Virus record (IMG/VR): IMGVR_UViG_3300028284_000001
Source: a virus
DNA: 64,000 bases
Reading direction: 5' to 3' (one strand)
Part shown: positions 3,478 through 36,325 of the stretch, one piece after another
Position numbering within the stretch: the stretch's first letter is position 1
Layout of the letters: every line of letters starts with the position of its first letter
The notes under the pieces: model-generated
Database searches by the model: none
What the model was told of the DNA's origin: nothing
The model's input: the letters and a program-made list of their open reading frames with translations, nothing else
Position numbers and translations under genes: made by a program

Positions 3478-4569
3478 TTAAAATAATGCAAGCGTTGCTT
3501 TGGTTAGTTTTGAGTTAGGTTCGTTCTTAACTAGATCCCAACGATAATACTCTCGTGCAATATGAACTGACTTAGGCTTTTCCATTACATCGAATGTTAA
3601 CTCTCCAAAAGAGTTTAGGTAAACATCCGGGTGTTTCCAAGTCTTCCAGTCATTTCTTTCACACATATCGGTTACCATTTGATTAAACTGTTTTACCAGT
3701 TCAGTTCTTTCAGCCCAACTACCTGCAAATGGAGTATCTTTATAGTACCCTGTTTTTGGTAGAGGTCTGGATTCATTTTCAATTGGTAGAGCTTGAACAA
3801 CTTCAATGTTATCAATTTCTAAATCGATTAATTGTTGTTCATAAATAGCCATCATATCTTTTAGAGCTTTGCTAGGATTAGCTTGTCTCATAAGATGATG
3901 TCTAATATCTATATTCCCTAGATAGATCCTAAGCTCTTGGATTTCTTCTGGTACATAAGAACGAAGACCTCGTCTTAACGTACCGAATAGAGTTAATCCA
4001 TCATTTCGATCGGTCATATACCCTGGGGTATATTGGCTAAAAGAATGTGAGTCTCCAAAGCAAAGTTTATTTGTCTTTTGGATTCGGTCTACTCTGGGAA
4101 TAATAGCGCAGAGTTCCTTTGCCTCTTCTATTCGAACCTCTAGGGTTTTAAAAAGATCGGAACCTGTCTTTAAACGTTTCTCAATTAGAGTACCTACACA
4201 AGGCATATCATGGTGTAATGAATACATCCTAATGCCTTTTGAAAATAATCTAATTACTTGATTGTATAAGTCATCATTAGCACCTCCAAATATATTGAAG
4301 TTGCCTTTAAATTCCATACCGTGTTCTAATAACATTACATGGAAATTCTCTTCCCAATGAGTTACAACATCTGTAACTACTGTAACATCTGTATATCCTG
4401 CGGCGGTTAGTTGATTTGCAAGTTTGAAAGCCCAACCTGATTTATGTGATTGTGGCTTCGGACTTAATTTACCTACTAGAGCTGCAATACCTATCTTGGC
4501 ATTTTTGTCTTTCTCTAAATCAGTAAAATATATTTGACTATTGGTTGTCATCGATTCCAGCATCTGCAT
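3478..4569 (-). CDS. Hypothetical protein with C-terminal SGNH/GDSL-like domain
   Basis: CFGDSHS (block I), G (block II), YLGNIDIRHH (block III-like) and KSVH (block V His). Confidence 0.55.
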   Translation of the reverse strand: MQMLESMTTNSQIYFTDLEKDKNAKIGIAALVGKLSPKPQSHKSGWAFKLANQLTAAGYTDVTVVTDVVTHWEENFHVMLLEHGMEFKGNFNIFGGANDDLYNQVIRLFSKGIRMYSLHHDMPCVGTLIEKRLKTGSDLFKTLEVRIEEAKELCAIIPRVDRIQKTNKLCFGDSHSFSQYTPGYMTDRNDGLTLFGTLRRGLRSYVPEEIQELRIYLGNIDIRHHLMRQANPSKALKDMMAIYEQQLIDLEIDNIEVVQALPIENESRPLPKTGYYKDTPFAGSWAERTELVKQFNQMVTDMCERNDWKTWKHPDVYLNSFGELTFDVMEKPKSVHIAREYYRWDLVKNEPNSKLTKATLALF

Positions 4570-4916: not shown

Positions 4917-5594
4917 CTAAAGTTCGTAGATAACTGGTACTCCATTTTCAATACAAAGATACTCATACGGGAGTGCGTCAACAAAATAGTGGTTATCATC
5001 ATAATCGATTACTCTCATATTAGTATGCCCAACAACTTGTATAATAGTATCGTTAAGGGGATTACGTCTTAGGGCTTGAGGTCTAATCCACATTGGACCT
5101 TCACCATCATAATTACCATACATTTCCATACCACTATGATTAAACGATCTCTTATCATAAGACCAAAGATCATTAATTTGTTCTGGGATATTACCGCCTT
5201 CTGGGAAATTAGTGTCATACCATTCTTTCGAAACACCAGCGTGTGTAAATAAAAACTTATCTACCTGATATGCTACTTGTAAATGTTCTTTAGTTTCTCG
5301 TAAGAGTTCACCGATTTCTGGTGCGTGCCATGTATTATATCCGCCATATCGACCGCCACATTCTGACATATAATGAAAGTCATGGTTACCGATCAACATA
5401 GTTACTTTAACATCAGCAGATTCTTTCCATGCAATAATCTCTTTATAGTTGTAAATTTGTTCCGCATGTGAAATAGAGAATGAGTCAAAGTAATCTCCGA
5501 TGAATACAAACTCAGTAGCATCAGGGTTTAACTCGATAAGTTTCTTCCAACTATCATGCCCATGTACATCTCCTATTACTACTATTTTACTCAT
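4917..5594 (-). CDS. Calcineurin-like metallophosphoesterase
   Basis: GDVHG, GDYFD, GNHD, THAG and VGHT motifs. Confidence 0.92.
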   Translation of the reverse strand: MSKIVVIGDVHGHDSWKKLIELNPDATEFVFIGDYFDSFSISHAEQIYNYKEIIAWKESADVKVTMLIGNHDFHYMSECGGRYGGYNTWHAPEIGELLRETKEHLQVAYQVDKFLFTHAGVSKEWYDTNFPEGGNIPEQINDLWSYDKRSFNHSGMEMYGNYDGEGPMWIRPQALRRNPLNDTIIQVVGHTNMRVIDYDDNHYFVDALPYEYLCIENGVPVIYEL

Positions 5595-5773
5595 TTTAAT
5601 TTCTTTTTAAAAATAATTAATTTTAATTGGATATAGAACTTAATATCGTAATACCACTTAAACTGCTTTCTTCTCTTTGCTTTCTTAATCCAACCAGAAT
5701 CTTTAAATGAGATTCGTTTTACCCAATCGGAAATTGATTCGCCTTCGTATCTAGCATCGCGGTGTTTATTCAT
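5591..5773 (-). CDS. Small basic hypothetical protein (probable start MNKHRD at 5773)
   Basis: The ORF track starts it at 5833, but that extension overlaps the 45-aa ORF. The ATG at 5771-5773 is coupled to that ORF's end (GATGAATAA). Confidence 0.55.
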   Translation of the reverse strand: MNKHRDARYEGESISDWVKRISFKDSGWIKKAKRRKQFKWYYDIKFYIQLKLIIFKKKLK

Positions 5774-5903
5774 CTTTCTTTTTATGTTTCTTTGTTCGTG
5801 TATATTGTTTTTTACTCTTATGAACATTACCACGCATAGCCTGCCATATCTCTTGTATGGTAAACTGTGTCTTTTGTAGTTTTTTATTTTCTTTCTTGTC
5901 CAT
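5766..5903 (-). CDS. Unannotated 45-aa basic protein, ArfA/BrfA-like ribosome rescue factor candidate
   Basis: MDKKENKKLQKTQFTIQEIWQAMRGNVHKSKKQYTRTKKHKKKDE, directly behind a conserved early promoter. The KSKK-x-Y-x-R-x2-KH tail resembles the ArfA/BrfA C-terminal KH motif. The ORF is well supported; the function is inferred. Confidence 0.6.
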   Translation of the reverse strand: MDKKENKKLQKTQFTIQEIWQAMRGNVHKSKKQYTRTKKHKKKDE

Positions 5904-5909
5904 TGTGTA

Positions 5910-5952
5910 TAATTACAGTACTAATATACGAATAATTTCTGACATAAAAAAA
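5910..5952 (-). promoter_or_regulatory. Early (host sigma) promoter cassette TTTTTTATGTCA-N5-TATTCGTATATTAGTACTGTAATTA
   Basis: Near-identical to the copies at about 20214-20256 and 51565-51607. TATATTAG is one mismatch from the Bacteroidota -7 consensus TAnnTTTG. Confidence 0.75.
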
Positions 5953-5963
5953 TCTAGAGGCAC

Positions 5964-7118
5964 TTATTTGTAAAGTTTTGCAAACTTTTCTGCTTCGATC
6001 TCTTTTATCTTATCTGCGATTGCAGGTCCTTTTACATCAAACTGCTTCATAACATCGCCGCCATTAGTAGATGGCTTGTATTTAATGAATGCCTTTATCA
6101 TTTTAATGTCTAACCTATTTAGCTTTGCAAACTCTAAAATAATCTTTTTATCTAGCTTTACAATATCTCTCTTTTTACTTACATCAAATACAGTCTCTGG
6201 TTTTAGAGTCATTAATGATTTAAGAAATAAAATAGAATCTATTTCTTTACTTGAAAATGTTAGCCTATTTAATTGAGATTTTATTTGATCGTTTTCATTA
6301 ACACCAAATAGAGTTGCAATTTGAATTATCCAATCCCTAGTATCGATAAATCTTTTATCTACATAAACAGTAGGAAACATTACTGGCCACATCTTAAAGT
6401 ACTCTACCATCTCCAAGTATTTCTTTGGGGACTTAGCAGTAGTTACAGATTTCTTAAATTCATCTCTAATTCTTTCTGGACTAATATCTTCTAATGAGTT
6501 ATCACTAATAATAGCTTCTGCTGTATTCTTTTCTAGTTTACTACCAGTTCTACCAGCAAATCTTAGGGCTCTTAATTTTCTTAGAGGATCTTCTTCAAAT
6601 CTCTCCTGAGCTCTACCGACAGTTCTAATAGTATTACTTTGAATATCTGCAATACCACCAACTAGATCGACAACTTCTTGAGTTTCAATATTGTAAAATA
6701 GTGCATTAATTGTTAAGTCTCTCCTTAGAACATCTTGATCTATTGTAGAAAACTTCACGGCATCAGGTCTACGACCCTTTCCAATGTCTTCTCTAAATGT
6801 TGCAATTTCCATGCCCTCAGCAAAGCTAGGAGTTTTAGCAATTACAACTCCAAACTGTTGTCCTACTTCTCCGATGGTTGGAACACCACCTGATTTTAAG
6901 ATCTTAATTACTTCTTCTGGTTTTGCATCAGTAGCTAAATCAAAGTCTTTTGGTTTTTGCCCAAGCATTGCATCTCGCACTGCACCACCAACTACATAAA
7001 GTTCTCTTTTATTTTTCTTAAAGAGTTTATGTAAATCGATGACGTCTTTAGGTACATTCATCTTAAGCCTCTGTTGAGCCTCTAGTAATAACGTGTATTG
7101 TGAGTATGATTCTAACAT
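5964..7118 (-). CDS. cca: Class II tRNA nucleotidyltransferase (CCA-adding enzyme / poly(A) polymerase family)
   Basis: VGGAVRD, DFDLATD, EIATFR, RRDLTINAL, RFEEDPLRKLRALRF (EDxxR nucleotide-selection motif) and ISPERI. Confidence 0.9.
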   Translation of the reverse strand: MLESYSQYTLLLEAQQRLKMNVPKDVIDLHKLFKKNKRELYVVGGAVRDAMLGQKPKDFDLATDAKPEEVIKILKSGGVPTIGEVGQQFGVVIAKTPSFAEGMEIATFREDIGKGRRPDAVKFSTIDQDVLRRDLTINALFYNIETQEVVDLVGGIADIQSNTIRTVGRAQERFEEDPLRKLRALRFAGRTGSKLEKNTAEAIISDNSLEDISPERIRDEFKKSVTTAKSPKKYLEMVEYFKMWPVMFPTVYVDKRFIDTRDWIIQIATLFGVNENDQIKSQLNRLTFSSKEIDSILFLKSLMTLKPETVFDVSKKRDIVKLDKKIILEFAKLNRLDIKMIKAFIKYKPSTNGGDVMKQFDVKGPAIADKIKEIEAEKFAKLYK

Positions 7119-7138: not shown

Positions 7139-7206
7139 CTAATATACGAAAAAAGACCCAAACAAAAAAATGTTTAGGCCTTTATTTTGTTAAAGTTATT
7201 AACAAT
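7139..7206 (-). promoter_or_regulatory. Early promoter variant upstream of cca
   Basis: TTCGTATATTAG core with upstream TTTG; also carries the TGTTAATAACTTT...CAAAATA element seen at 20178-20201. Confidence 0.6.
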
Positions 7207-20194: not shown

Positions 20195-20260
20195 CAAAAT
20201 AGTTGCCGAAATATTTTTTTATGTCAATTATTATTCGTATATTAGTACTGTAATTAAAAA
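20195..20260 (+). promoter_or_regulatory. Early promoter cassette (repeat copy)
   Basis: CAAAATA...TTTTTTATGTCAATTATTATTCGTATATTAGTACTGTAATTAAAAA, nearly identical to 51546-51611. Confidence 0.8.
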
Positions 20261-28117: not shown

Positions 28118-31100
28118 TTATGACTTTATTTTTACCATAGGTCTAACTTCGTAAGAGTAGCCTAATCTTTTATTATATATCAACCTAAAATTAAGAGGCT
28201 GTTGTTCGTGTGATTTAAACGTAAAGTTTATATCATTAGAGAATGCTCCATCGTCTAAATTATCAATGCTGTCTGTTGATAAAATTTCAGAGAATTGACC
28301 CTTTCTTCTACTTGTGTATAATTTTATTTGATCTAAATTAAATGTATTAAGTAGGTTGTTTTCAACGTATAATAACGCATCATCTTTAGTTGTTGTTTTG
28401 TCACCTGCAGAATTAACAGCAGTTACAAATTTATTTATTGAATTTAGTACACCATCTGAAGATAATAACTTCTTAAGCGTCGATGTAATATAAAAATCCA
28501 TATAAATGTAATCCTTATTTTCAAATGATACTACATCATACTTTTCATCACCGTTAGCTAAAATTCGATCTTGCTGTTCTTGTGTTTTAGTAGCATACGA
28601 AGTAAAGTTAGTAATATTATATGAATCTTTTATCTTCATAATAGTAGAGCCTAAATAAGATCTTTCTTCTTTAGTTTCAAAAGTACCAGGTACTTGTTCA
28701 AATAAACCACCGGACAAACTTCTAGTATAATAGTTTTTATCCCAAGAAGACTTAAATACATTTATATCTTTTTTGTCTATTGTAACCTCACCGATTAAAG
28801 GATAAAGAGGTAATTTATCAGTAGACTCAGATAGTTTAGTTACTGCCGCAGCATTAGTTTCATTTACTTTTCTGTAAAAATGATTTTTAATAATACCCCA
28901 TCCATTATCATGTATGTTACGATCTTGTATGTAACCTAAGTTAAATGAAGTTCCACATCTATTATATTTCTTATAGTAATCTCTAGCCAATTCAACTTCT
29001 TTAGCATTTGTTAATGAATGCTTATACATTGATTCTTCAAATAAGATTTCAGTTGGGTTAGCAGTAGACTGTAAAGTGTTTGTTTTAAAATGAGTATATG
29101 TGTCAGTAAAAGTTACAATCGGATTTGTTGATATTGTATAATCACCATTATGTCTAACTAAGAATGGATAATATGTATCACTTACAGATAATTCGTAACC
29201 TATTGTACCTTGTTTTAATTTAAACGTTTTAGGCTTTTCTTCGTCTGACACTGTAACTAACATAGATTGTTTAATTACTTCTACTCCACTTTCGAATTGA
29301 ATTTCAAATCTATTAGAATTAATAGCACCATCAATCTCAACTGTTGTATATTTAATTGAACCATCATTATTCTTTAATAAATCAGACACCGCTGATACTG
29401 ACAGACTGCCTAAGATCGAAGTGAAGGCATTTTTACCCCCGCCTTTATATACATAAGTAGCAGACGTTTGAAGATAACCAGCAATATTAGAAACATTAAC
29501 CGGGTTGCCGTTTAAATCAACAGGGGCTGATGTTAAAGTAAGTTGAGCTTGGTCATCAATAGATGCAATCTTTAATTTAAAAGTAACAGGACCACTCGAG
29601 TCTTGCACCGTTACATATATGTTTCCAAATACTTCATTTTCATCTGGATTAATTTGATCTAAGAATTGAGGTAATCCCCCATCAACATGATCTATTCCAC
29701 TCGCTATTAAATAATCAGCAGCAGTTGGATCTGTAAAATTAATGTCATTCAGATTTAAAGCTCCGCTTATAGCAACGTCAGAATAACTAAAGTTTTCTGT
29801 CTCATGGTTCCATACAAAGCTGTGATTCATTTCATATAATAGTTTCCTATTTAAAGCACCATCAATCCATAAATCATCCATAGATATTGTAATTAAAAAT
29901 ACAACAAATTCAAACTCCTTATTTTGAATAACTTCATATTCAATGTCGTTCGTAGCTTGTCCACCTCTAACCATAACTAAAGTACTAAACTTATAGCCAT
30001 TAAATTCAGAAGATTTCACAAAATCATTAGTTGTAATATTTTCAAATTCTTTTCTATTCTTAAAAGAAACTTTAATACCTTTAAATAAAGTACTACCAAA
30101 CGATGCGTCGTTACCGCCTGAAACATTTGTATATTTCTTTTGTAAATTTGTTTTAATAAAAGATTTAATACCGTTACTATCAGTTTTCTCAAAACCTTCA
30201 GTTACCATAAATCTATCAAAGTAATTATATGAAGTGCTCTTAAAGTGAGATGCATTTAATTCAAAACCTTCTAAGAAGTTTACATAACTAAACGTATCAT
30301 TAAGCTGATCGTATTTTAAATATTTTGGTACATTATCTAAATAAAACCACTCATGTGTCATACCTAGTCTATCTCTACCTTCAGCATCAAAATCTGGTGA
30401 GAAGTTAGTTCTTCCAAATGCTTCGTTTGAGTTTAAATGATAACCCTCTTCTCTTACAGTCGTACCATCTTTTAATACCCACTTGTTAATATTAGGAGTT
30501 ACTCTAGATCTTACTGCAAATTGCTTAAGATTATTTTCTTGTAATCTATCATATTCACTCCATAGTTTAGATTCGTTATATGAATCCAATCCTTCTTCTG
30601 GTAAAATACCTCCAATACCAGTAAAGTAATTAACAGGCTCATCTTCAAATTCACTATCGAAAACGGTTAATGTGTTAGTAGTACTTTGTTGAGGTTCATA
30701 ATTAATATTAGCCGGAGTTTCAAATTCTAATTCTTTTAGATCTGAATTTGATATATCATAAAAATCAAAATCCATATCATGAATATCGTACGCTGAAAAT
30801 AAACCAATCCTAGCAACATTATCTGCATATACATTTTGCTCTCCAGAAGCTAAAGTGTTTATGTCTTCTAAAATAATTTTATTGTATATAGTATCAGCTC
30901 TTTCTATATCTTCCACTATATCAATAACTTTGTTGTACACATTGTCTGAATTTGTAGCAATTAAATCACCAACATTAATGTCAGCAACAGAATCTTTAGT
31001 TACTAATATAGATTTCCCAGCAGAATTACCGCCGTTCATATAGTACACTTGATTTACATTAAATATAACATCGCTTAAATTAAGCAATCCATTTGTATTA

Positions 31101-34100
31101 GCATTTGTTATAGAATCTCTATTGTTTACATCTAAGAAAACAGCAGAGTTTGCATTAGGAATTAAAATACCTGATTGTAATCTTCTATAACCTTTAATAT
31201 TTGATTTGACATAAAAGTAATCAGCACCATCTTCAATAATAGCCGTAAAATCAATAGGACTATTATTAACACATTCCGTAATTGCTTTAGCAATATCAGC
31301 AAAGTTACCTTGAGATGAGAACGAAGTGCTCTCGTATGTACCTGATGGTAAAACTGGCGAAGCAAAGAATGTTGAATTATCTAATTTAACGCTTGTTTGA
31401 ATTTCAGACACTTTAGCGATTGTACTTGAAGTTAAAGGAACCGTAGCTTCAAAAGATATTTCTAAATCTGAAAGAGTTGCATACTTATCTGTAATATAAA
31501 TAGTTTTATCTATATCAGATCTTTCTATTTTAATACCAGCACTATTACCGTCTGGGTATAAGTTTTGAATAGTATCAAATGTATCTGAAAGAGTTGTTCC
31601 CGTAGCTATTACGTGTTCAATTGGAGTACCTCCTTGTATATTTAGCTTTAACTTCCAGCCTTCACCTGCAATATGTCTTAAGAATTTAATAGAATATGCA
31701 GATTCTTTAGAATCAAAAATTACAAATCTATCATTAGATTGTGGAATTCCAGTTACCTGTACTTTATTAAAATCAAAACCTGCTGAATCTTCTTTAATAA
31801 CATCTATAGAGTTACCATTAGCAGCTAGTTTTATTTCAGAAGAAATACTATTATCACTATCTTCTACAATTACATTTAAACTGCTAGTCTCATAAGCAGC
31901 CCTAGATGATATTTTATAGAATGTATCACTTACCGCAACATAACCTAAAGTTGGAGTTCCGGAAATATGTTTGAATGAAGGTATTGCAGATTCTGGAGAG
32001 TCATTAATATCAGAGCTTAAAGTCTTAAATATAATGTTTCCATTTTCTGCTGTAGATATACTACCACTTCCTGAATCAATATCGTTTACATAAAGTCCAA
32101 AATATCTATTAATAGAATAATCAGAAGCGCTGTTATCATCAAATAAGAATTCTAAATTAATAAGATTTGCACATGCTAAGTTGTTTCTTTGAAAGCCATC
32201 ACTAATAATTTGATTACTAGCAATTAATGGACTATCATTTCTTACAAAATCTTGATATAAAAATTCAGGCTTTGATGCAAATCCGCCTTTAACTAAATCA
32301 ATACCTCTGAAATTTGATTTCTCACCTTTAGCAAAATTAAATTGTATTGGCGATTTAGGGAATGCTTCTGCATTAACGTGATTTCTAATATATTTACCTA
32401 AAGAAGATTCTGAAGTTAAATCAAATGTCTTAACAATCTCAGAGTGTTTAAGTATATCTTGTATGTTTTCTAAATTAGATCTATCGTCAAAATCTAATTC
32501 TCCAACTGGATCGTTAACTCTAAATACTACAAATTTCTTAGGAACTTCTTTATCCAACCAGATTGGAGCTAACATTCTAAAATCTTCATCATGAATTTTA
32601 GAGTAATTATATGTAGTACCATAATGATACACTTCTTCTATTTGCTTATTGAAACTATCTTGAACTGAATAGTCAGAATAATCTGATCTCGTAGCAAACA
32701 TTATATCTCCTGGCGTGTAGTTAGACTTATAGAATCTCTGTAAATCATAAGACCATTTACCTGTAGCATTAAGTTCCCATTTTTTATATTCAATAGATGC
32801 TAATTCTTTTGTAGCATCAATTGATTCAATAAAGATCTTATTAGAACTATTAGCAACTAATTTTGCATTAGTAGATAATTTAGGGTTTGTTCTTAACAAT
32901 GGTTTAGAAACGTTATCCAACGTGTAGTTTGTTTCTAAATCAAAATTAGGTAAATTTCTATTTGTAATTATTGCATTATCAAGCGTTGGAAATGTATAAG
33001 ATAGCCATGTTCCAGTTTCTGAATCACACAAATAACAAATGCTTCCATTTGCACTACTTTCTACAATATCTTGTTGATATAATACCGTTGAGTTACTACC
33101 AAATCCTAAATCAACCGGGTTGATAGATATTGGTTTTAAGTCAACATCTAAATTTTGTTGATATGTTCCTATTTCAACTTCTAACTTGTCAATTGCATCT
33201 TCAATGTTAGTTGCTATAATTCTATTAATATAGGTATAACAATTACCATCTACTTTAATTTGCGCACGTTCTCCTAAGTTTAAAACATCTGAAGTTCTAA
33301 GAGTTTTAATGAAATCTAAAATATAAGAAACATCATCTCCGGATTCTGATGCAAAATGTAAACCATCTATTACATATAATGGGAAATAAGGCTGGGTTCC
33401 AGTAGTTAATCCCGGATCTAATTGAGCTTCACATCCATAAAAAACATAATACATCGATTTAGAAGAATCGCTTTCTAGCCCAATCGTAGTATCATTTGGT
33501 GGTCCTATAATAGGCAAATCTAAAAGAGGCCTTACGTAATCGGCGTTTGGCAAACCAATGCCGTCACCACAACCTCCTAATATAGAGCCTACGTTTGCAA
33601 TTTCCAATACATTGTCTGAATCAAAACCGTACCACCTGGTCGATCCTGCATATCCAGTTGCATTATCATTATCCCATACTACGAAACCTCCTGTGGTAGC
33701 GTCTAATATCACTGAACTAGGCTGTAATAGTGTATAATCTAGAACAGTAGCTCCTCCTTGTGTAGCAAAGACTCTAACTTGTTTTTGGGCTAATTGTAAT
33801 AATGTATAATCAGGTGATGTTCCATTAGGATCTGGTATACCATTACCATCTAATCTTGGAGATCTATACCATATAATTATGTCATCAAATAATGTATTAA
33901 CATCTGCCCATGTTTGGTAAGTTCCGAATACATTACATACCGACCCAATATCTGTTGGATCTGGCGTAAACCATTTTACAGAAAGCCATTTAGTATCATA
34001 TACTGTTGCAGGAACACATTCAAATAAATTTGGATCAGGTGCACCAGACACTCCATTTGCTAGCCAAATGCCGGCGTCGACAATATAGTATTGTAATGGA

Positions 34101-36325
34101 CTTTGTTGTAACGCAGTATCTGTATATGAACCGCTCGGTGCTAATTGTTCTGATGGCGCAGTAGATCCTGAATAAGAATTTGCTACAGCTTCACTTGAAA
34201 ACAATTGACCATTTGCCGCAACAACGTCTGATAGTGTAGTGTTAAAACCACCACTATTAAGTTCTCCAATATTTTGCCAAACCTCAACTTCAACCACAGA
34301 CGACTCATTATCACATAATGGACCATAGTTTTCTTCATAAGATACTAGTATTGGCCATGCGCTACCAGTCGTAACATTACAGTTTACAATTTCTTCAAGA
34401 GTTGCCCCAGAAGATATCTTTATAGCTCTTACTGTGTTGTTTGCAGTTTCTTCAGCAGAAAGCCATGGCGATCCTGCACTAAAAAAATTAACAGGTACTG
34501 TTAGAGCTTGATCTTGGTATAGTTGATAACCCGGTCCTATTGGTAAATCCGATAAGAACGTTGAAAAAGCAGCTAAATTTGTATTAGCACTAGTATCATA
34601 CCAGTATTCTAATGGACCTCTAGTTAAATTACAAACAGTAGTGCTTGAGTTTCCAAAATTAGAAACCAATACTTTTCTAGAAGCAGCTGCAGATGATTCA
34701 AAAGTAAATGTTATATTTTCACTAGCATCATATCCTCCGTAAAAATCTACTACTTTAAGAGTTACACTAATACTATTAGAGACTGCCGTTGCTGTCACCG
34801 AAAGTATTCCGGTAAATGTGTTATATGCTGCATTAATTGGACCCGATTGACTCTCGATTGAGACTGTTACATCATGATTTTCAGCATCATTTGTTGTAAT
34901 TGCAGCACTCTCCCATTCCATACCAACTGCCATTGATATTGTACTAGGAGGTGATATTGTAAACGTAGGAGCAGCATTACTAGGAGTTAGTACCTGTATT
35001 TGTATTTGACCTATATCAGTTAAACCATACTCATCCGTTGCTCTAAAATAAAATACTTCAGTTTGTGATGAATCATTTGGGGTAAGATCTACACTTGTTG
35101 TATACGTAAAACCCTCTGTAATATTTGGAGTTGGAGCAATAGCTCCCGCTTGTAAGTTTTGGTTTATCTGAGCAAGTGTTATTACATTACTTCCGTTCTG
35201 GTCATCAACCCAATCGTATGTTACAGTTGGAGTATTCTCATCAGTTGCCGTTCTTTGAAATGATGTTGTATTACCATTTTGCCCCTGTAATGAAACACTA
35301 ACAGGATTTGCACTTGGTGCTACGTTAGCAGGATCATTAACTGTAATTTCTACTTCCGCAGCGAACAGTTGTTCTTGCCCGTTTGAATCTTCCGCTTTAT
35401 AGAAAAAAGCATCTGTGTTTCCACCTGCAAATGAATTATTTGGGTAATATCTAATTTTTAAGGGATCTGCGCCCGTAATTGTAGTAGGGGTTGTTGTAAT
35501 ATCAACTCCCTGTAATGTTTTAAGCGTTCCATTCGCAGGAAGCGCTGTTATGTTTATTGTATAACTTTCTGATTCAGGCTCTGTAACATGCTGTGAAAAA
35601 TCTATTTCCTTAAATGAACTGCCATCTCCGGCATTCACCATATTAGTAATTACATTATTACTGACCGGTGGTAGATTAACACTACTATCAGTAATAGTAA
35701 CTGTTACAGTACTGTTTCCAGTGTTTGTCACACCGTTAACATCAGCAGCATCTAATACTAATTCAAGAATTTCATCACCTTCATTAAAAGAAATGTCTTC
35801 TGCAATACTAAAACTTTGAGACCAATTACCCGAAGAAAAAGTTCCGGAAGCTACCCAATTGGCTGGGACCACTAAATCGTTGGCATCTATTGTAGTATTA
35901 GCACCAAGAGTCCAGCCTATACTATCAAGTGTTCCTCCTGATGGGTCTGCATTTACTACAAAATTTACTGTAGTTCCCTCATTTGTTGATGAAATATTAC
36001 CGGCAGTTTCTAAAACATAAATAGGATCTGGGGGAAGTGTCGTAGTCGTAGTTACAGGCGATTGGACGACACCTACATCACTAATCTGTACTACATAGCC
36101 AACAGTATTTATAGAGTACCACCAGTAATCATCACCTCCAACTACTTCGTTACCCGTAGTTAAGCCTGCATCTGTAAATAATACGTCGCCAGCTTCTAGA
36201 TCTGTGCTACTTCCTTGTGCCGCCTCGTCAAAGTGATATGTTATAGTATTTACACTTCCAGGTCCGTTTGTCCAAGCACCCGCTTCTGTTGTGTACCCAC
36301 TATTATGAAATATAATTTGTGCCAT
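28118..36325 (-). CDS. Giant virion protein (2735 aa) with N-terminal Ig/cadherin-like repeats
   Basis: N-x-[AP]-P repeat starts (NLPPVS, NVAPSA, NAAPTF), Calx-beta-like EGDE segment, Thr/Ser/Asn-rich; GATATATA at 36364-36371. Confidence 0.65.
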   Translation of the reverse strand: MAQIIFHNSGYTTEAGAWTNGPGSVNTITYHFDEAAQGSSTDLEAGDVLFTDAGLTTGNEVVGGDDYWWYSINTVGYVVQISDVGVVQSPVTTTTTLPPDPIYVLETAGNISSTNEGTTVNFVVNADPSGGTLDSIGWTLGANTTIDANDLVVPANWVASGTFSSGNWSQSFSIAEDISFNEGDEILELVLDAADVNGVTNTGNSTVTVTITDSSVNLPPVSNNVITNMVNAGDGSSFKEIDFSQHVTEPESESYTINITALPANGTLKTLQGVDITTTPTTITGADPLKIRYYPNNSFAGGNTDAFFYKAEDSNGQEQLFAAEVEITVNDPANVAPSANPVSVSLQGQNGNTTSFQRTATDENTPTVTYDWVDDQNGSNVITLAQINQNLQAGAIAPTPNITEGFTYTTSVDLTPNDSSQTEVFYFRATDEYGLTDIGQIQIQVLTPSNAAPTFTISPPSTISMAVGMEWESAAITTNDAENHDVTVSIESQSGPINAAYNTFTGILSVTATAVSNSISVTLKVVDFYGGYDASENITFTFESSAAASRKVLVSNFGNSSTTVCNLTRGPLEYWYDTSANTNLAAFSTFLSDLPIGPGYQLYQDQALTVPVNFFSAGSPWLSAEETANNTVRAIKISSGATLEEIVNCNVTTGSAWPILVSYEENYGPLCDNESSVVEVEVWQNIGELNSGGFNTTLSDVVAANGQLFSSEAVANSYSGSTAPSEQLAPSGSYTDTALQQSPLQYYIVDAGIWLANGVSGAPDPNLFECVPATVYDTKWLSVKWFTPDPTDIGSVCNVFGTYQTWADVNTLFDDIIIWYRSPRLDGNGIPDPNGTSPDYTLLQLAQKQVRVFATQGGATVLDYTLLQPSSVILDATTGGFVVWDNDNATGYAGSTRWYGFDSDNVLEIANVGSILGGCGDGIGLPNADYVRPLLDLPIIGPPNDTTIGLESDSSKSMYYVFYGCEAQLDPGLTTGTQPYFPLYVIDGLHFASESGDDVSYILDFIKTLRTSDVLNLGERAQIKVDGNCYTYINRIIATNIEDAIDKLEVEIGTYQQNLDVDLKPISINPVDLGFGSNSTVLYQQDIVESSANGSICYLCDSETGTWLSYTFPTLDNAIITNRNLPNFDLETNYTLDNVSKPLLRTNPKLSTNAKLVANSSNKIFIESIDATKELASIEYKKWELNATGKWSYDLQRFYKSNYTPGDIMFATRSDYSDYSVQDSFNKQIEEVYHYGTTYNYSKIHDEDFRMLAPIWLDKEVPKKFVVFRVNDPVGELDFDDRSNLENIQDILKHSEIVKTFDLTSESSLGKYIRNHVNAEAFPKSPIQFNFAKGEKSNFRGIDLVKGGFASKPEFLYQDFVRNDSPLIASNQIISDGFQRNNLACANLINLEFLFDDNSASDYSINRYFGLYVNDIDSGSGSISTAENGNIIFKTLSSDINDSPESAIPSFKHISGTPTLGYVAVSDTFYKISSRAAYETSSLNVIVEDSDNSISSEIKLAANGNSIDVIKEDSAGFDFNKVQVTGIPQSNDRFVIFDSKESAYSIKFLRHIAGEGWKLKLNIQGGTPIEHVIATGTTLSDTFDTIQNLYPDGNSAGIKIERSDIDKTIYITDKYATLSDLEISFEATVPLTSSTIAKVSEIQTSVKLDNSTFFASPVLPSGTYESTSFSSQGNFADIAKAITECVNNSPIDFTAIIEDGADYFYVKSNIKGYRRLQSGILIPNANSAVFLDVNNRDSITNANTNGLLNLSDVIFNVNQVYYMNGGNSAGKSILVTKDSVADINVGDLIATNSDNVYNKVIDIVEDIERADTIYNKIILEDINTLASGEQNVYADNVARIGLFSAYDIHDMDFDFYDISNSDLKELEFETPANINYEPQQSTTNTLTVFDSEFEDEPVNYFTGIGGILPEEGLDSYNESKLWSEYDRLQENNLKQFAVRSRVTPNINKWVLKDGTTVREEGYHLNSNEAFGRTNFSPDFDAEGRDRLGMTHEWFYLDNVPKYLKYDQLNDTFSYVNFLEGFELNASHFKSTSYNYFDRFMVTEGFEKTDSNGIKSFIKTNLQKKYTNVSGGNDASFGSTLFKGIKVSFKNRKEFENITTNDFVKSSEFNGYKFSTLVMVRGGQATNDIEYEVIQNKEFEFVVFLITISMDDLWIDGALNRKLLYEMNHSFVWNHETENFSYSDVAISGALNLNDINFTDPTAADYLIASGIDHVDGGLPQFLDQINPDENEVFGNIYVTVQDSSGPVTFKLKIASIDDQAQLTLTSAPVDLNGNPVNVSNIAGYLQTSATYVYKGGGKNAFTSILGSLSVSAVSDLLKNNDGSIKYTTVEIDGAINSNRFEIQFESGVEVIKQSMLVTVSDEEKPKTFKLKQGTIGYELSVSDTYYPFLVRHNGDYTISTNPIVTFTDTYTHFKTNTLQSTANPTEILFEESMYKHSLTNAKEVELARDYYKKYNRCGTSFNLGYIQDRNIHDNGWGIIKNHFYRKVNETNAAAVTKLSESTDKLPLYPLIGEVTIDKKDINVFKSSWDKNYYTRSLSGGLFEQVPGTFETKEERSYLGSTIMKIKDSYNITNFTSYATKTQEQQDRILANGDEKYDVVSFENKDYIYMDFYITSTLKKLLSSDGVLNSINKFVTAVNSAGDKTTTKDDALLYVENNLLNTFNLDQIKLYTSRRKGQFSEILSTDSIDNLDDGAFSNDINFTFKSHEQQPLNFRLIYNKRLGYSYEVRPMVKIKS

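What the first reader, a model, noticed from the sequence alone, without database searches (positions are those of the whole stretch)
5766..5903. Hidden 45-aa ORF looks like a phage ArfA/BrfA-type ribosome rescue factor
Seen: an ORF missed by the track, starting within a few nt of one of the conserved early promoters and ending in RGNVHKSKKQYTRTKKHKKKDE. Known: ArfA (…KKGKGSYxRKxKH) and BrfA are tiny basic proteins whose C-terminal KH-containing tail enters the empty mRNA channel and recruits RF2; they are normally made only in truncated form from non-stop mRNA. Inference: the phage encodes a constitutive, already-truncated rescue factor that recycles ribosomes stalled on cleaved mRNA, for example after host shut-off or toxin activation.
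Basis: partly seen in the sequence, partly recalled or inferred. Interest (0 to 1): 0.8.

Follow-up and report, generated by a model that had tools for sequence, protein, structure and literature searches.

The report
Phage mini-protein resembling rescue factor ArfA
A real, conserved 45-codon early gene of a large marine phage encodes a tiny basic protein whose tail closely matches the ribosome-docking tail of the bacterial rescue factor ArfA, so the phage probably carries its own always-on tool for freeing stalled ribosomes, though no function has been tested.

Summary
The ORF exists as described (minus strand, 5766-5903, 45 aa) and starts 6 nt after a 23-nt promoter core repeated five times in the genome. 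It is a real gene. It has 44 near homologues, a family of at least 155 sequence clusters, and mostly third-position substitutions.

Pfam ArfA does not match the protein. It matches Pfam DUF7230 below threshold, and 75 of 105 aligned family members match DUF7230 at E<=1.

Three results tie the family to ArfA:
- The family profile's best hit among all PDB sequences is ArfA, over ArfA residues 26-48: the RF2-contacting strand and the mRNA-tunnel tail, including the Lys-His pair. The profile-profile score beats every composition-preserving shuffle.
- A Pseudoalteromonas phage protein passes the curated thresholds of both ArfA and DUF7230.
- Four distant family members have a terminator inside the reading frame, the non-stop design of arfA and brfA.

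The window's gene has a normal stop and no internal hairpin, so it looks like a constitutive form. The N-terminal half differs from ArfA, no similarity to BrfA was found, and release-factor recruitment is untested. The host is probably a Bacteroidota, a phylum without known ArfA.

This scan has found the same family before on other DNA. Verdict: a new variant of a known kind, moderately interesting.

The parts
5766..5903 (-). 45-aa ORF (stop included): ArfA-like mini-protein, sub-threshold match to Pfam DUF7230
5835..5858 (-). Residues 16-23 (IQEIWQAM): the only predicted helix and the most conserved block (Q17 E18 I19 W20 A22 M23 invariant among near homologues). Candidate counterpart of ArfA's hydrophobic patch.
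   Evidence: The mapping to ArfA L19/L24/F25 (PMC5378476) is inference.
5775..5834 (-). Residues 24-43 (RGNVHKSKKQYTRTKKHKKK). They align with ArfA residues 26-48, the strand that pairs with RF2 plus the mRNA-tunnel tail. 9 of 20 aligned residues are identical, with one 3-residue deletion (ArfA G35-G37).
   Evidence: Roles of the ArfA residues are from PMC5378476.
5784..5789 (-). Lys39-His40, aligned with ArfA K44-H45. This is the K-H pair shared by ArfA and BrfA that contacts 16S rRNA U534.
   Evidence: PMC6881298, PMC8012679. Both residues are at least 90% conserved in A1.
5910..5952 (-). Conserved early-type promoter element: T-run, ATGTCA, spacer, then the 23-nt core. The TATATTAG box is at 5928-5921.
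   Evidence: The box recurs in relatives directly after a terminator. Its function as a promoter is inferred.
5904..5909 (-). 6-nt spacer between promoter core and ATG. No Shine-Dalgarno motif; the leader is predicted to be about 11 nt or shorter.
   Evidence: The transcription start site was not measured.
5591..5773 (-). Conserved 60-aa basic ORF of unknown function. Its ATG overlaps the end of the 45-aa ORF by 8 nt (ATGAATAA), and its stop overlaps the next ATG.
4917..5594 (-). Calcineurin-like metallophosphoesterase, downstream neighbour
5964..7118 (-). tRNA nucleotidyltransferase (CCA-adding enzyme family), upstream neighbour, with its own terminator plus TTCGTATATTAG box (7183-7139)

Best explanation

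Proposed mechanism (inferred):
- The basic tail (residues 29-43, with Tyr34, Arg36 and Lys39-His40) enters the mRNA tunnel of the 30S subunit only when the tunnel is empty, that is, on ribosomes stalled at the 3' end of broken or stop-less mRNA.
- Residues 24-28 (R-G-N-V-H) lie in the A site as an extended strand.
- Together with the conserved helix I-Q-E-I-W-Q-A-M, this strand recruits and activates a host class-I release factor, which releases the peptide.

Unlike arfA, the gene has an ordinary stop codon and no internal hairpin. It also sits directly behind an early-type promoter with a very short leader and no Shine-Dalgarno motif. It should therefore be made constitutively from the start of infection, independently of the state of host trans-translation.

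Shown here: the gene is real and under purifying selection, the tail resembles ArfA, and there is a family link to ArfA. Inferred: ribosome binding, release-factor recruitment, timing of expression and benefit to the phage.
For: (1) Coding and conservation.

(2) A profile of 105 family members searched against 177,635 distinct PDB sequences puts ArfA first (E=0.061). Six of the nine hits at E<=10 are ArfA constructs. The aligned stretch is RpnVhKnKK---kYtRKkKh against RQRVEKNKKgkgSYMRKGKH.

(3) hhalign of the family against my 32-sequence cellular ArfA alignment gives score 25-26, P 1e-4 to 4e-4 and probability 35-57%. 300 whole-alignment column shuffles give mean 8.6, sd 2.0, max 16.7. 250 shuffles confined to the 23 tail columns give mean 11.4, sd 2.8, max 24.7, and none reach the real score. 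So the residue order matters, not just lysine content.

(4) Bridge protein: the 51-aa protein of Pseudoalteromonas phage J2-1 is annotated ArfA. It passes Pfam ArfA (41.3 bits, cut-off 25.5) and DUF7230 (28.6 bits, cut-off 27), and its tail has the family's spacing without the G-K-G insert.

(5) Independent hallmark: in four distant family members (L161, L165, L166, L167) a G+C-rich hairpin followed by a T-rich stretch (a weak one in L166) lies inside the ORF before the stop. L161 also passes the terminator scan. arfA and brfA use this design to couple expression to trans-translation (PMC8012679).

(6) The AlphaFold2 model has one short helix (residues 16-23) and an extended tail, mean pLDDT 79. 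This matches the general ArfA architecture.

(7) The aligned ArfA segment is the functional core: residues 25-29 pair with the RF2 beta-sheet and residues 31-48 fill the mRNA tunnel (PMC5378476). The K-H pair is shared with BrfA (PMC6881298).

(8) Precedent: ArfA-domain genes are annotated in cultured phages, and pelagiphage HTVC027P gp30 is expressed during infection (PMC12753301).
Against: - Pfam ArfA does not match the protein, even at E<=10 on the whole phage record.
- My own cellular ArfA HMM does not pick this ORF out of 1,629 ORFs of the genome.
- The DUF7230 match is below threshold (14.7-17.3 bits against 27).
- The PDB and hhalign statistics are marginal in absolute terms (E=0.061; probability about 35-57%).
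- The similarity covers only about 20 residues of a lysine-rich tail, so convergence cannot be excluded.
- The N-terminal half (T-x-Q-E-I-W-x-A) is not alignable with confidence to ArfA's H-x-x-G-x-I-x-D-N-A...P-L-F minidomain, which is what activates RF2.
- ArfA is known only from beta- and gammaproteobacteria and is species-specific for its RF2 (PMC8012679). The probable host here is a Bacteroidota.
- The window's gene lacks the non-stop regulation.
Confidence: 0.55

Rival explanations
1. The peptide plugs the mRNA tunnel of vacant or stalled ribosomes but does not recruit a release factor. It could block tmRNA-SmpB, so that phage proteins made from broken mRNAs escape tagging, or it could silence or park host ribosomes.
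For: The strongest similarity is confined to the tunnel-binding tail. The N-terminal activation minidomain of ArfA is not recognisably present. ArfA, SmpB and ArfB tails compete for the same site (PMC8012679).
Against: The segment aligned to ArfA includes residues 26-30, the strand that pairs with RF2, not only the tunnel part (PMC5378476). The helix I-Q-E-I-W-x-A is the most conserved block of the family, which argues for a second specific partner. Relatives carry the non-stop design typical of factors that back up trans-translation. A general plug would also hinder phage translation.
Confidence: 0.2
2. It is a generic small basic nucleic-acid-binding protein, for example a DNA- or RNA-binding early regulator or chaperone. 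Its lysine-rich tail resembles ArfA by convergence.
For: It is very basic and short, it lies among early genes, and its neighbours vary (clamp loader, UvdE, ligase, methyltransferase). Absolute E-values to ArfA are weak.
Against: ArfA ranks first among all PDB sequences, ahead of every ribosomal protein, histone and other basic protein. Tail-restricted shuffles that keep the composition never reach the real score. One natural protein belongs to both Pfam families. In-frame terminators in relatives have no rationale for a DNA binder.
Confidence: 0.15
3. The ORF is not a functional protein. The conserved DNA would serve as a promoter-proximal or leader element, or the ORF is a regulatory upstream peptide for the 60-aa ORF and the phosphoesterase.
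For: It abuts a promoter and overlaps the next ORF by 8 nt.
Against: Amino-acid-level conservation extends down to about 40% identity in over 150 clusters, in unrelated genomic contexts and as stand-alone terminator-promoter-ORF-terminator units. Synonymous changes predominate. In sister locus L001 the 60-aa ORF is absent but the mini-protein gene is kept.
Confidence: 0.03

Closest known systems
ArfA (YhdL; Pfam PF03889) of E. coli and other beta-/gammaproteobacteria; structures 5U4I, 5MDV, 5H5U, 5MGP
   Same: It is a tiny basic protein with a short helix followed by an extended strand and a basic tail. Window residues R24, V27, K29, K31, K32, Y34, R36, K39 and H40 coincide with ArfA R26, V29, K31, K33, K34, Y39, R41, K44 and H45. 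The protein ends about where ordered density of ArfA ends, at residues 46-48 (PMC8012679). Distant relatives share the non-stop mRNA design.
   Different: It fails the ArfA HMM. It lacks the G-K-G insert. Its N-terminal half has another motif (T-x-Q-E-I-W-x-A instead of H-x-x-G-x-I-x-D-N-A...P-L-F). It has 45 aa with its own stop, against a 72-aa ORF truncated to about 55 aa. It has no internal hairpin and no hydrophobic C-terminal extension. It is phage-borne and the probable host phylum is different.
Phage-encoded ArfA-domain proteins: Pseudoalteromonas phage J2-1 ATN93434.1, Citromicrobium phage vB_CbaS-RXM gp10, Erythrobacter phage XM05 gp102, pelagiphage HTVC027P gp30
   Same: They are phage genes of 42-60 aa with an ordinary stop codon. 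The J2-1 tail has the same spacing as this family, and J2-1 passes both ArfA and DUF7230. HTVC027P gp30 is reported as expressed during infection (PMC12753301).
   Different: These pass the ArfA Pfam threshold and keep the ArfA-type N-terminal half. Their hosts are proteobacteria. None has been tested biochemically as far as the searched literature shows.
Pfam DUF7230 (PF23876), family of unknown function
   Same: 75 of 105 aligned family members match it at E<=1 (best E 4.2e-6). The window protein matches profile positions 16-36.
   Different: The window protein scores 14.7-17.3 bits, below the 27-bit cut-off. No paper in the searched library mentions DUF7230.
BrfA of Bacillus subtilis (and the C-terminal tails of SmpB and ArfB)
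   Same: All use a basic C-terminal extension that probes the empty mRNA tunnel. BrfA shares the K-H pair that contacts U534 and is expressed from a non-stop mRNA (PMC6881298).
   Different: No sequence similarity was detected: BrfA is absent from the profile's PDB hits at E<=10. BrfA has N-terminal helices that bind between the subunits. SmpB and ArfB tails are helical.

Membership tests
ArfA (Pfam PF03889) | Score above the curated Pfam gathering threshold (25.5 bits) | tested here: not met
   There is no ArfA hit at E<=1 for the protein. There are no candidates at E<=10 in the whole phage record. A cellular ArfA HMM built here does not retrieve the ORF among 1,629 genome ORFs.
ArfA (Pfam PF03889) | Basic C-terminal tail with the K-K...Y-x-R-K-x-K-H motif that fills the mRNA tunnel (ArfA residues 31-48) | tested here: met
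   The family profile aligns to ArfA residues 26-48, and ArfA is the top PDB hit. Global and local shuffles never reach the real hhalign score. The window protein has K31-K32, Y34, R36 and K39-H40.
ArfA (Pfam PF03889) | Extended strand (ArfA 25-29, F-R-Q-R-V) that augments the RF2 domain-2 beta-sheet | tested here: inconclusive
   Sequence counterpart M23-R24-G25-N26-V27 aligns (R and V identical) and is modelled as extended.
ArfA (Pfam PF03889) | N-terminal minidomain (H-x-x-G-x-I-x-D-N-A, Ala18, hydrophobic patch L19/L24/F25) that activates RF2 | tested here: not met
   The family has a different conserved block, T-x-Q-E-I-W-x-A. hhalign needs a 10-residue gap there and gives low confidence. 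A functional equivalent (I19, W20, A22, M23) is only conjecture.
ArfA (Pfam PF03889) | Expression from a non-stop mRNA made by an internal hairpin or terminator | tested here: not met
   In the window gene the stop comes directly after the tail and there is no significant structure (z = -1.2). The same holds for close relatives. The feature is present in four distant family members.
ArfA (Pfam PF03889) | RF2-dependent peptidyl-tRNA hydrolysis on non-stop ribosomes | not testable with these tools
   This needs biochemistry.
DUF7230 (Pfam PF23876) | Score above the curated threshold (27 bits) | tested here: not met
   The protein scores 14.7 bits and 17.3 bits on the DNA. 75 of 105 aligned relatives match at E<=1, best E 4.2e-6. 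It therefore belongs to the wider family that DUF7230 samples, not to the curated set.
BrfA | Detectable sequence similarity and N-terminal intersubunit helices | tested here: not met
   BrfA chains are not among the PDB hits of the family profile at E<=10. Only the K-H pair is shared (PMC6881298).

The most novel reading that the evidence does not exclude
A very large, unnamed family of phage mini-proteins, sampled by DUF7230 and including this gene, may be the release-factor-dependent ribosome-rescue system of phages that infect Bacteroidota and other marine bacteria. In this lineage it is made constitutively from a leaderless or near-leaderless early transcript. It would work with a release factor of a phylum in which no ArfA/BrfA-type factor is known. 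It would let the phage keep ribosomes turning over when mRNAs are cut, either by its own host shut-off or by host RNase-based defences.
Probability: 0.3. Interest if true: 0.75.

Novelty: new variant of a known kind. Interest (0 to 1): 0.55.

Why it matters
RF-dependent rescue factors (ArfA, BrfA, ArfT) are thought to be late, lineage-restricted inventions of bacteria.

If this reading is right:
- The tunnel-sensing ArfA design would extend to phages of Bacteroidota.
- It would give a natural 'minimal ArfA' of about 35 functional residues for structure-function work.
- It would suggest that keeping ribosomes free of broken mRNAs is a common need early in infection, relevant to host shut-off and to RNase-type anti-phage defences.

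It would also give a function to Pfam DUF7230. The claim is directly testable with a synthetic 45-residue peptide.

Tried and rejected
- blastn of the locus and tblastn of the 45-aa protein against 50,697 phage records found nothing. Low-complexity filtering probably removed the tail.
- PHROGs and NCBIfam gave no hit. NCBIfam did not even hit E. coli ArfA, so it is uninformative.
- Pairwise BLASTP to E. coli ArfA gave E=0.043 for a single comparison, too weak alone.
- The search for homologous proteins and the search for related loci with ArfA returned only Enterobacteriaceae. A diverse ArfA set came from the genome search instead.
- My first local-shuffle script was void because of a string mismatch. 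I repeated it correctly.
A1 was used instead.
- Complex prediction with a flavobacterial RF2 was not available. No verdict.
- An arfA-like hairpin inside the window's ORF was sought and not found.
- The idea of a conserved 'translation-protection module' (CCA enzyme, mini-protein, phosphoesterase) was rejected as a general feature. Only sister locus L001 keeps this neighbourhood. Elsewhere the neighbours are a clamp loader, UvdE, DNA ligase, glycosyltransferase or methyltransferase.
- No tRNA, tmRNA, release-factor or SmpB gene is in the held 100.9-kb record, which is only about 36% of the estimated genome.
- The protein-atlas neighbours (DUF7230 cluster 0.91, ArfA cluster 0.89) are leads only.
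- No fold search was run on the 45-residue model, because one helix plus an extended chain cannot give a meaningful match.

Full report
**1. Observation**

The start codon lies six bases after the 23-nt block TTCGTATATTAGTACTGTAATTA (5932-5910). This block occurs five times in the 100.9-kb record that holds the window, each time just upstream of a gene and embedded in a longer conserved element (T-run, ATGTCA, spacer, block). A 19-nt version gives three window matches against 0.04 expected. The shorter box TTCGTATATTAG also precedes the CCA-enzyme gene, directly after a terminator.

An ORF of this length is not unusual by chance in 34% G+C DNA. Its reality therefore rests on the conservation described next.

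**2. It is a gene**

- A word-indexed search found 44 proteins at 63-98% identity. Almost all are 41-47 aa, were called independently in marine metagenomes, and lie on contigs of up to 178 kb.
- In their alignment the block F-T-I-Q-E-I-W-Q-A-M-R-G-N and the tail K-K-x-Y-x-R-x-x-K-H-K are nearly invariant. The N-terminus varies by whole-codon indels.
- An exhaustive profile search of 1.8 billion cluster representatives found 155 clusters at E<=1e-3 (21 at E<=1e-10). Nearly all are 33-80 aa.
- Between the window and two relatives from unrelated contexts, differences fall mostly at third codon positions and are mostly synonymous.
- The downstream 60-aa ORF (5591-5773) overlaps it by 8 nt. It is also conserved, with 11 homologues of which nine have the same 60-aa length.

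**3. Context**

All genes here run on the minus strand. In order they are:
- CCA-adding enzyme (5964-7118)
- the mini-protein (5766-5903)
- the 60-aa ORF (5591-5773)
- a calcineurin-like phosphoesterase (4917-5594)
- a DUF6378 protein

Only 1 of 44 genes in the window has a Shine-Dalgarno-like tetramer at -20 to -4, against a background of 13%. Leaders are 54% A. This is the pattern of Bacteroidota and their phages. It agrees with unchecked earlier notes of a T9SS sorting domain elsewhere in this genome, and with the nearest CCA-enzyme relatives being huge uncultured phages and Prevotella Lak phages. The host is therefore probably a marine Bacteroidota; this is an inference.

The neighbourhood is not conserved:
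- Sister locus L001 has a 98% identical CCA enzyme. It keeps a mini-protein gene, but as a 46%-identical allele, and lacks the 60-aa ORF.
- In other phages the neighbours are a thioesterase, a T4-type clamp loader, UvdE, DNA ligase, a glycosyltransferase or a methyltransferase.
- In many relatives the gene is a self-contained unit: terminator, promoter box, ORF, sometimes another terminator, then the promoter of the next gene.

The box TATATTAG (or TATATTTAC) lies 7-17 nt before the ATG: 7-8 nt in L195, L202 and L203, 10 nt in L001, and 17 nt in the window. If transcription starts about 7 nt after the box, the mRNA is leaderless or nearly so in several lineages and has a leader of about 11 nt here. 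The start site was not measured.

**4. Relation to ArfA**

Direct tests of family membership fail:
- Pfam ArfA does not hit the protein or any frame of the phage record.
- An HMM I built from 32 diverse cellular ArfA sequences does not retrieve the ORF from the genome's 1,629 ORFs.
- The only Pfam hit is DUF7230, below threshold. 75 of 105 aligned relatives match DUF7230 at E<=1.

Four results nevertheless tie the family to ArfA:

(a) The 105-sequence profile, searched against all distinct PDB sequences, ranks ArfA first (E=0.061). Six of the nine hits at E<=10 are ArfA constructs. The aligned stretch is ArfA residues 26-48.

(b) hhalign of the family against the cellular ArfA alignment scores 25-26 (P 1e-4 to 4e-4). 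This is far above 300 column shuffles (mean 8.6, max 16.7). It is also above all 250 shuffles restricted to the 23 tail columns, which keep the local lysine richness (mean 11.4, max 24.7).

(c) The 51-aa protein of Pseudoalteromonas phage J2-1 is annotated as ArfA. It has an ArfA-type N-terminal half and a tail with this family's spacing. It passes the curated thresholds of both ArfA (41.3 bits) and DUF7230 (28.6 bits). The two Pfam families therefore describe overlapping sequence space.

(d) In four distant members (L161, L165, L166, L167) a G+C-rich hairpin followed by a T-rich stretch (weak in L166) lies inside the ORF, right after the basic tail and before the stop. L161 also passes the terminator scan. 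Transcripts ending there would lack a stop codon. arfA and brfA use this device to be expressed only when trans-translation fails (PMC8012679, PMC6881298).

According to the ArfA-RF2-ribosome structures, residues 25-29 pair with the domain-2 sheet of RF2 and residues 31-48 fill the mRNA tunnel (PMC5378476). The K-H pair contacts U534 and is the one motif shared with BrfA (PMC6881298). The window protein has identical residues at nine of the twenty aligned positions, including K39-H40, with a three-residue deletion.

AlphaFold2 on the family alignment gives one helix (residues 16-23) and an extended remainder, with mean pLDDT 79.

**5. What differs from ArfA**

- The N-terminal half carries its own conserved motif (T-x-Q-E-I-W-x-A). 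It cannot be aligned with confidence to the ArfA minidomain that activates RF2.
- No similarity to BrfA was detected.
- The window's gene, like its close relatives, has a normal stop immediately after the tail and no internal structure (z = -1.2).
It ends about where ordered ArfA density ends.
- No tmRNA, SmpB or release-factor gene is in the held part of the genome.

**6. Explanation and rivals**

- Most likely (about 0.55): a minimal ArfA-like rescue factor. It senses the empty mRNA tunnel with its tail and recruits a host release factor through the strand and helix region. It is made early and constitutively.
- Rival (about 0.2): a tunnel plug without release-factor recruitment, for example to keep tmRNA off.
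- Rival (about 0.15): a generic basic nucleic-acid binder whose tail converged on ArfA's.
- Rival (about 0.03): a non-protein or leader-peptide role.

None of these can be decided without biochemistry.

**7. Novelty**

Phage genes with a bona fide ArfA domain are already annotated in GenBank records, and one is mentioned as expressed in a pelagiphage transcriptome (PMC12753301). No paper in the searched library mentions DUF7230, and none was found that tests a phage ArfA.

Earlier follow-up reports of this same scan reached similar readings for relatives of this family on other DNA. I re-tested their two main claims here: the link between DUF7230 and ArfA, and the in-frame terminators.

I classify the finding as a new variant of a known kind. 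It is of moderate interest and testable with a synthetic peptide.

Noticed in passing
One cluster lies in the spacer of the promoter copy at about 20227-20233. None lies within 5766-5903. This is possibly two assemblies or variants of the same phage.
   Followed up: partly
window 5591-5773 (-): This 60-aa basic ORF has a hydrophobic, lysine-rich C-terminus and is translationally coupled on both sides (ATGAATAA upstream, ATGA downstream). It is conserved in 11 metagenomic clusters, nine of them also 60 aa. It has no family assignment and is absent from sister locus L001.
   Followed up: partly
L001 5100-5350 versus window 5766-5960: A sister phage has a 98% identical CCA enzyme and the same promoter. 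Its mini-protein allele is only 46% identical (it has L-Q-E-W-L-D-A-L-R-M-P-T-P-V instead of I-Q-E-I-W-Q-A-M-R-G-N-V), and its ATG abuts the promoter core. This looks like allele replacement with a breakpoint at the promoter.
   Followed up: partly
window 7139-7183 (-); L037-L041 about 3930-4000; L173-L178: Terminator hairpins are fused directly to the next promoter box: the terminator's T-run doubles as the T-run upstream of TATATTAG. This gives very compact terminator-promoter junctions between early genes in this phage group.
   Followed up: partly
window, 44 minus-strand genes: Shine-Dalgarno motifs are almost absent (1 of 44 genes against a 13% background) and leaders are A-rich (54% A). 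This fits a Bacteroidota host.
   Followed up: yes
proteins P0238 (763 aa, residues 458-502) and P0251 (723 aa, residues 421-459): Two long proteins with no Pfam domain carry the mini-protein motif internally (E about 1e-6). Possibly the peptide is released from a larger precursor in some phages.
   Followed up: no
protein cluster P0028 / P0325 (JGI annotation): A 44-aa family member is named 'Holliday junction resolvasome RuvABC endonuclease subunit' by one source. This is evidently a mis-annotation.
   Followed up: no
window 28118-36325 (-): This 2,735-aa ORF has only a weak match to an unknown-function PHROG (phrog_31887). It lies among baseplate and tail genes.
   Followed up: no
L160 (Pseudomonas phage pf16, 131796-131912) and L158 (Roseobacter phage CRP-212): ArfA-like reading frames were detected by tblastn but are not annotated as such. 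In pf16 the frame lies opposite or adjacent to an annotated hypothetical gene. In CRP-212 it falls under a long annotated CDS.
   Followed up: no
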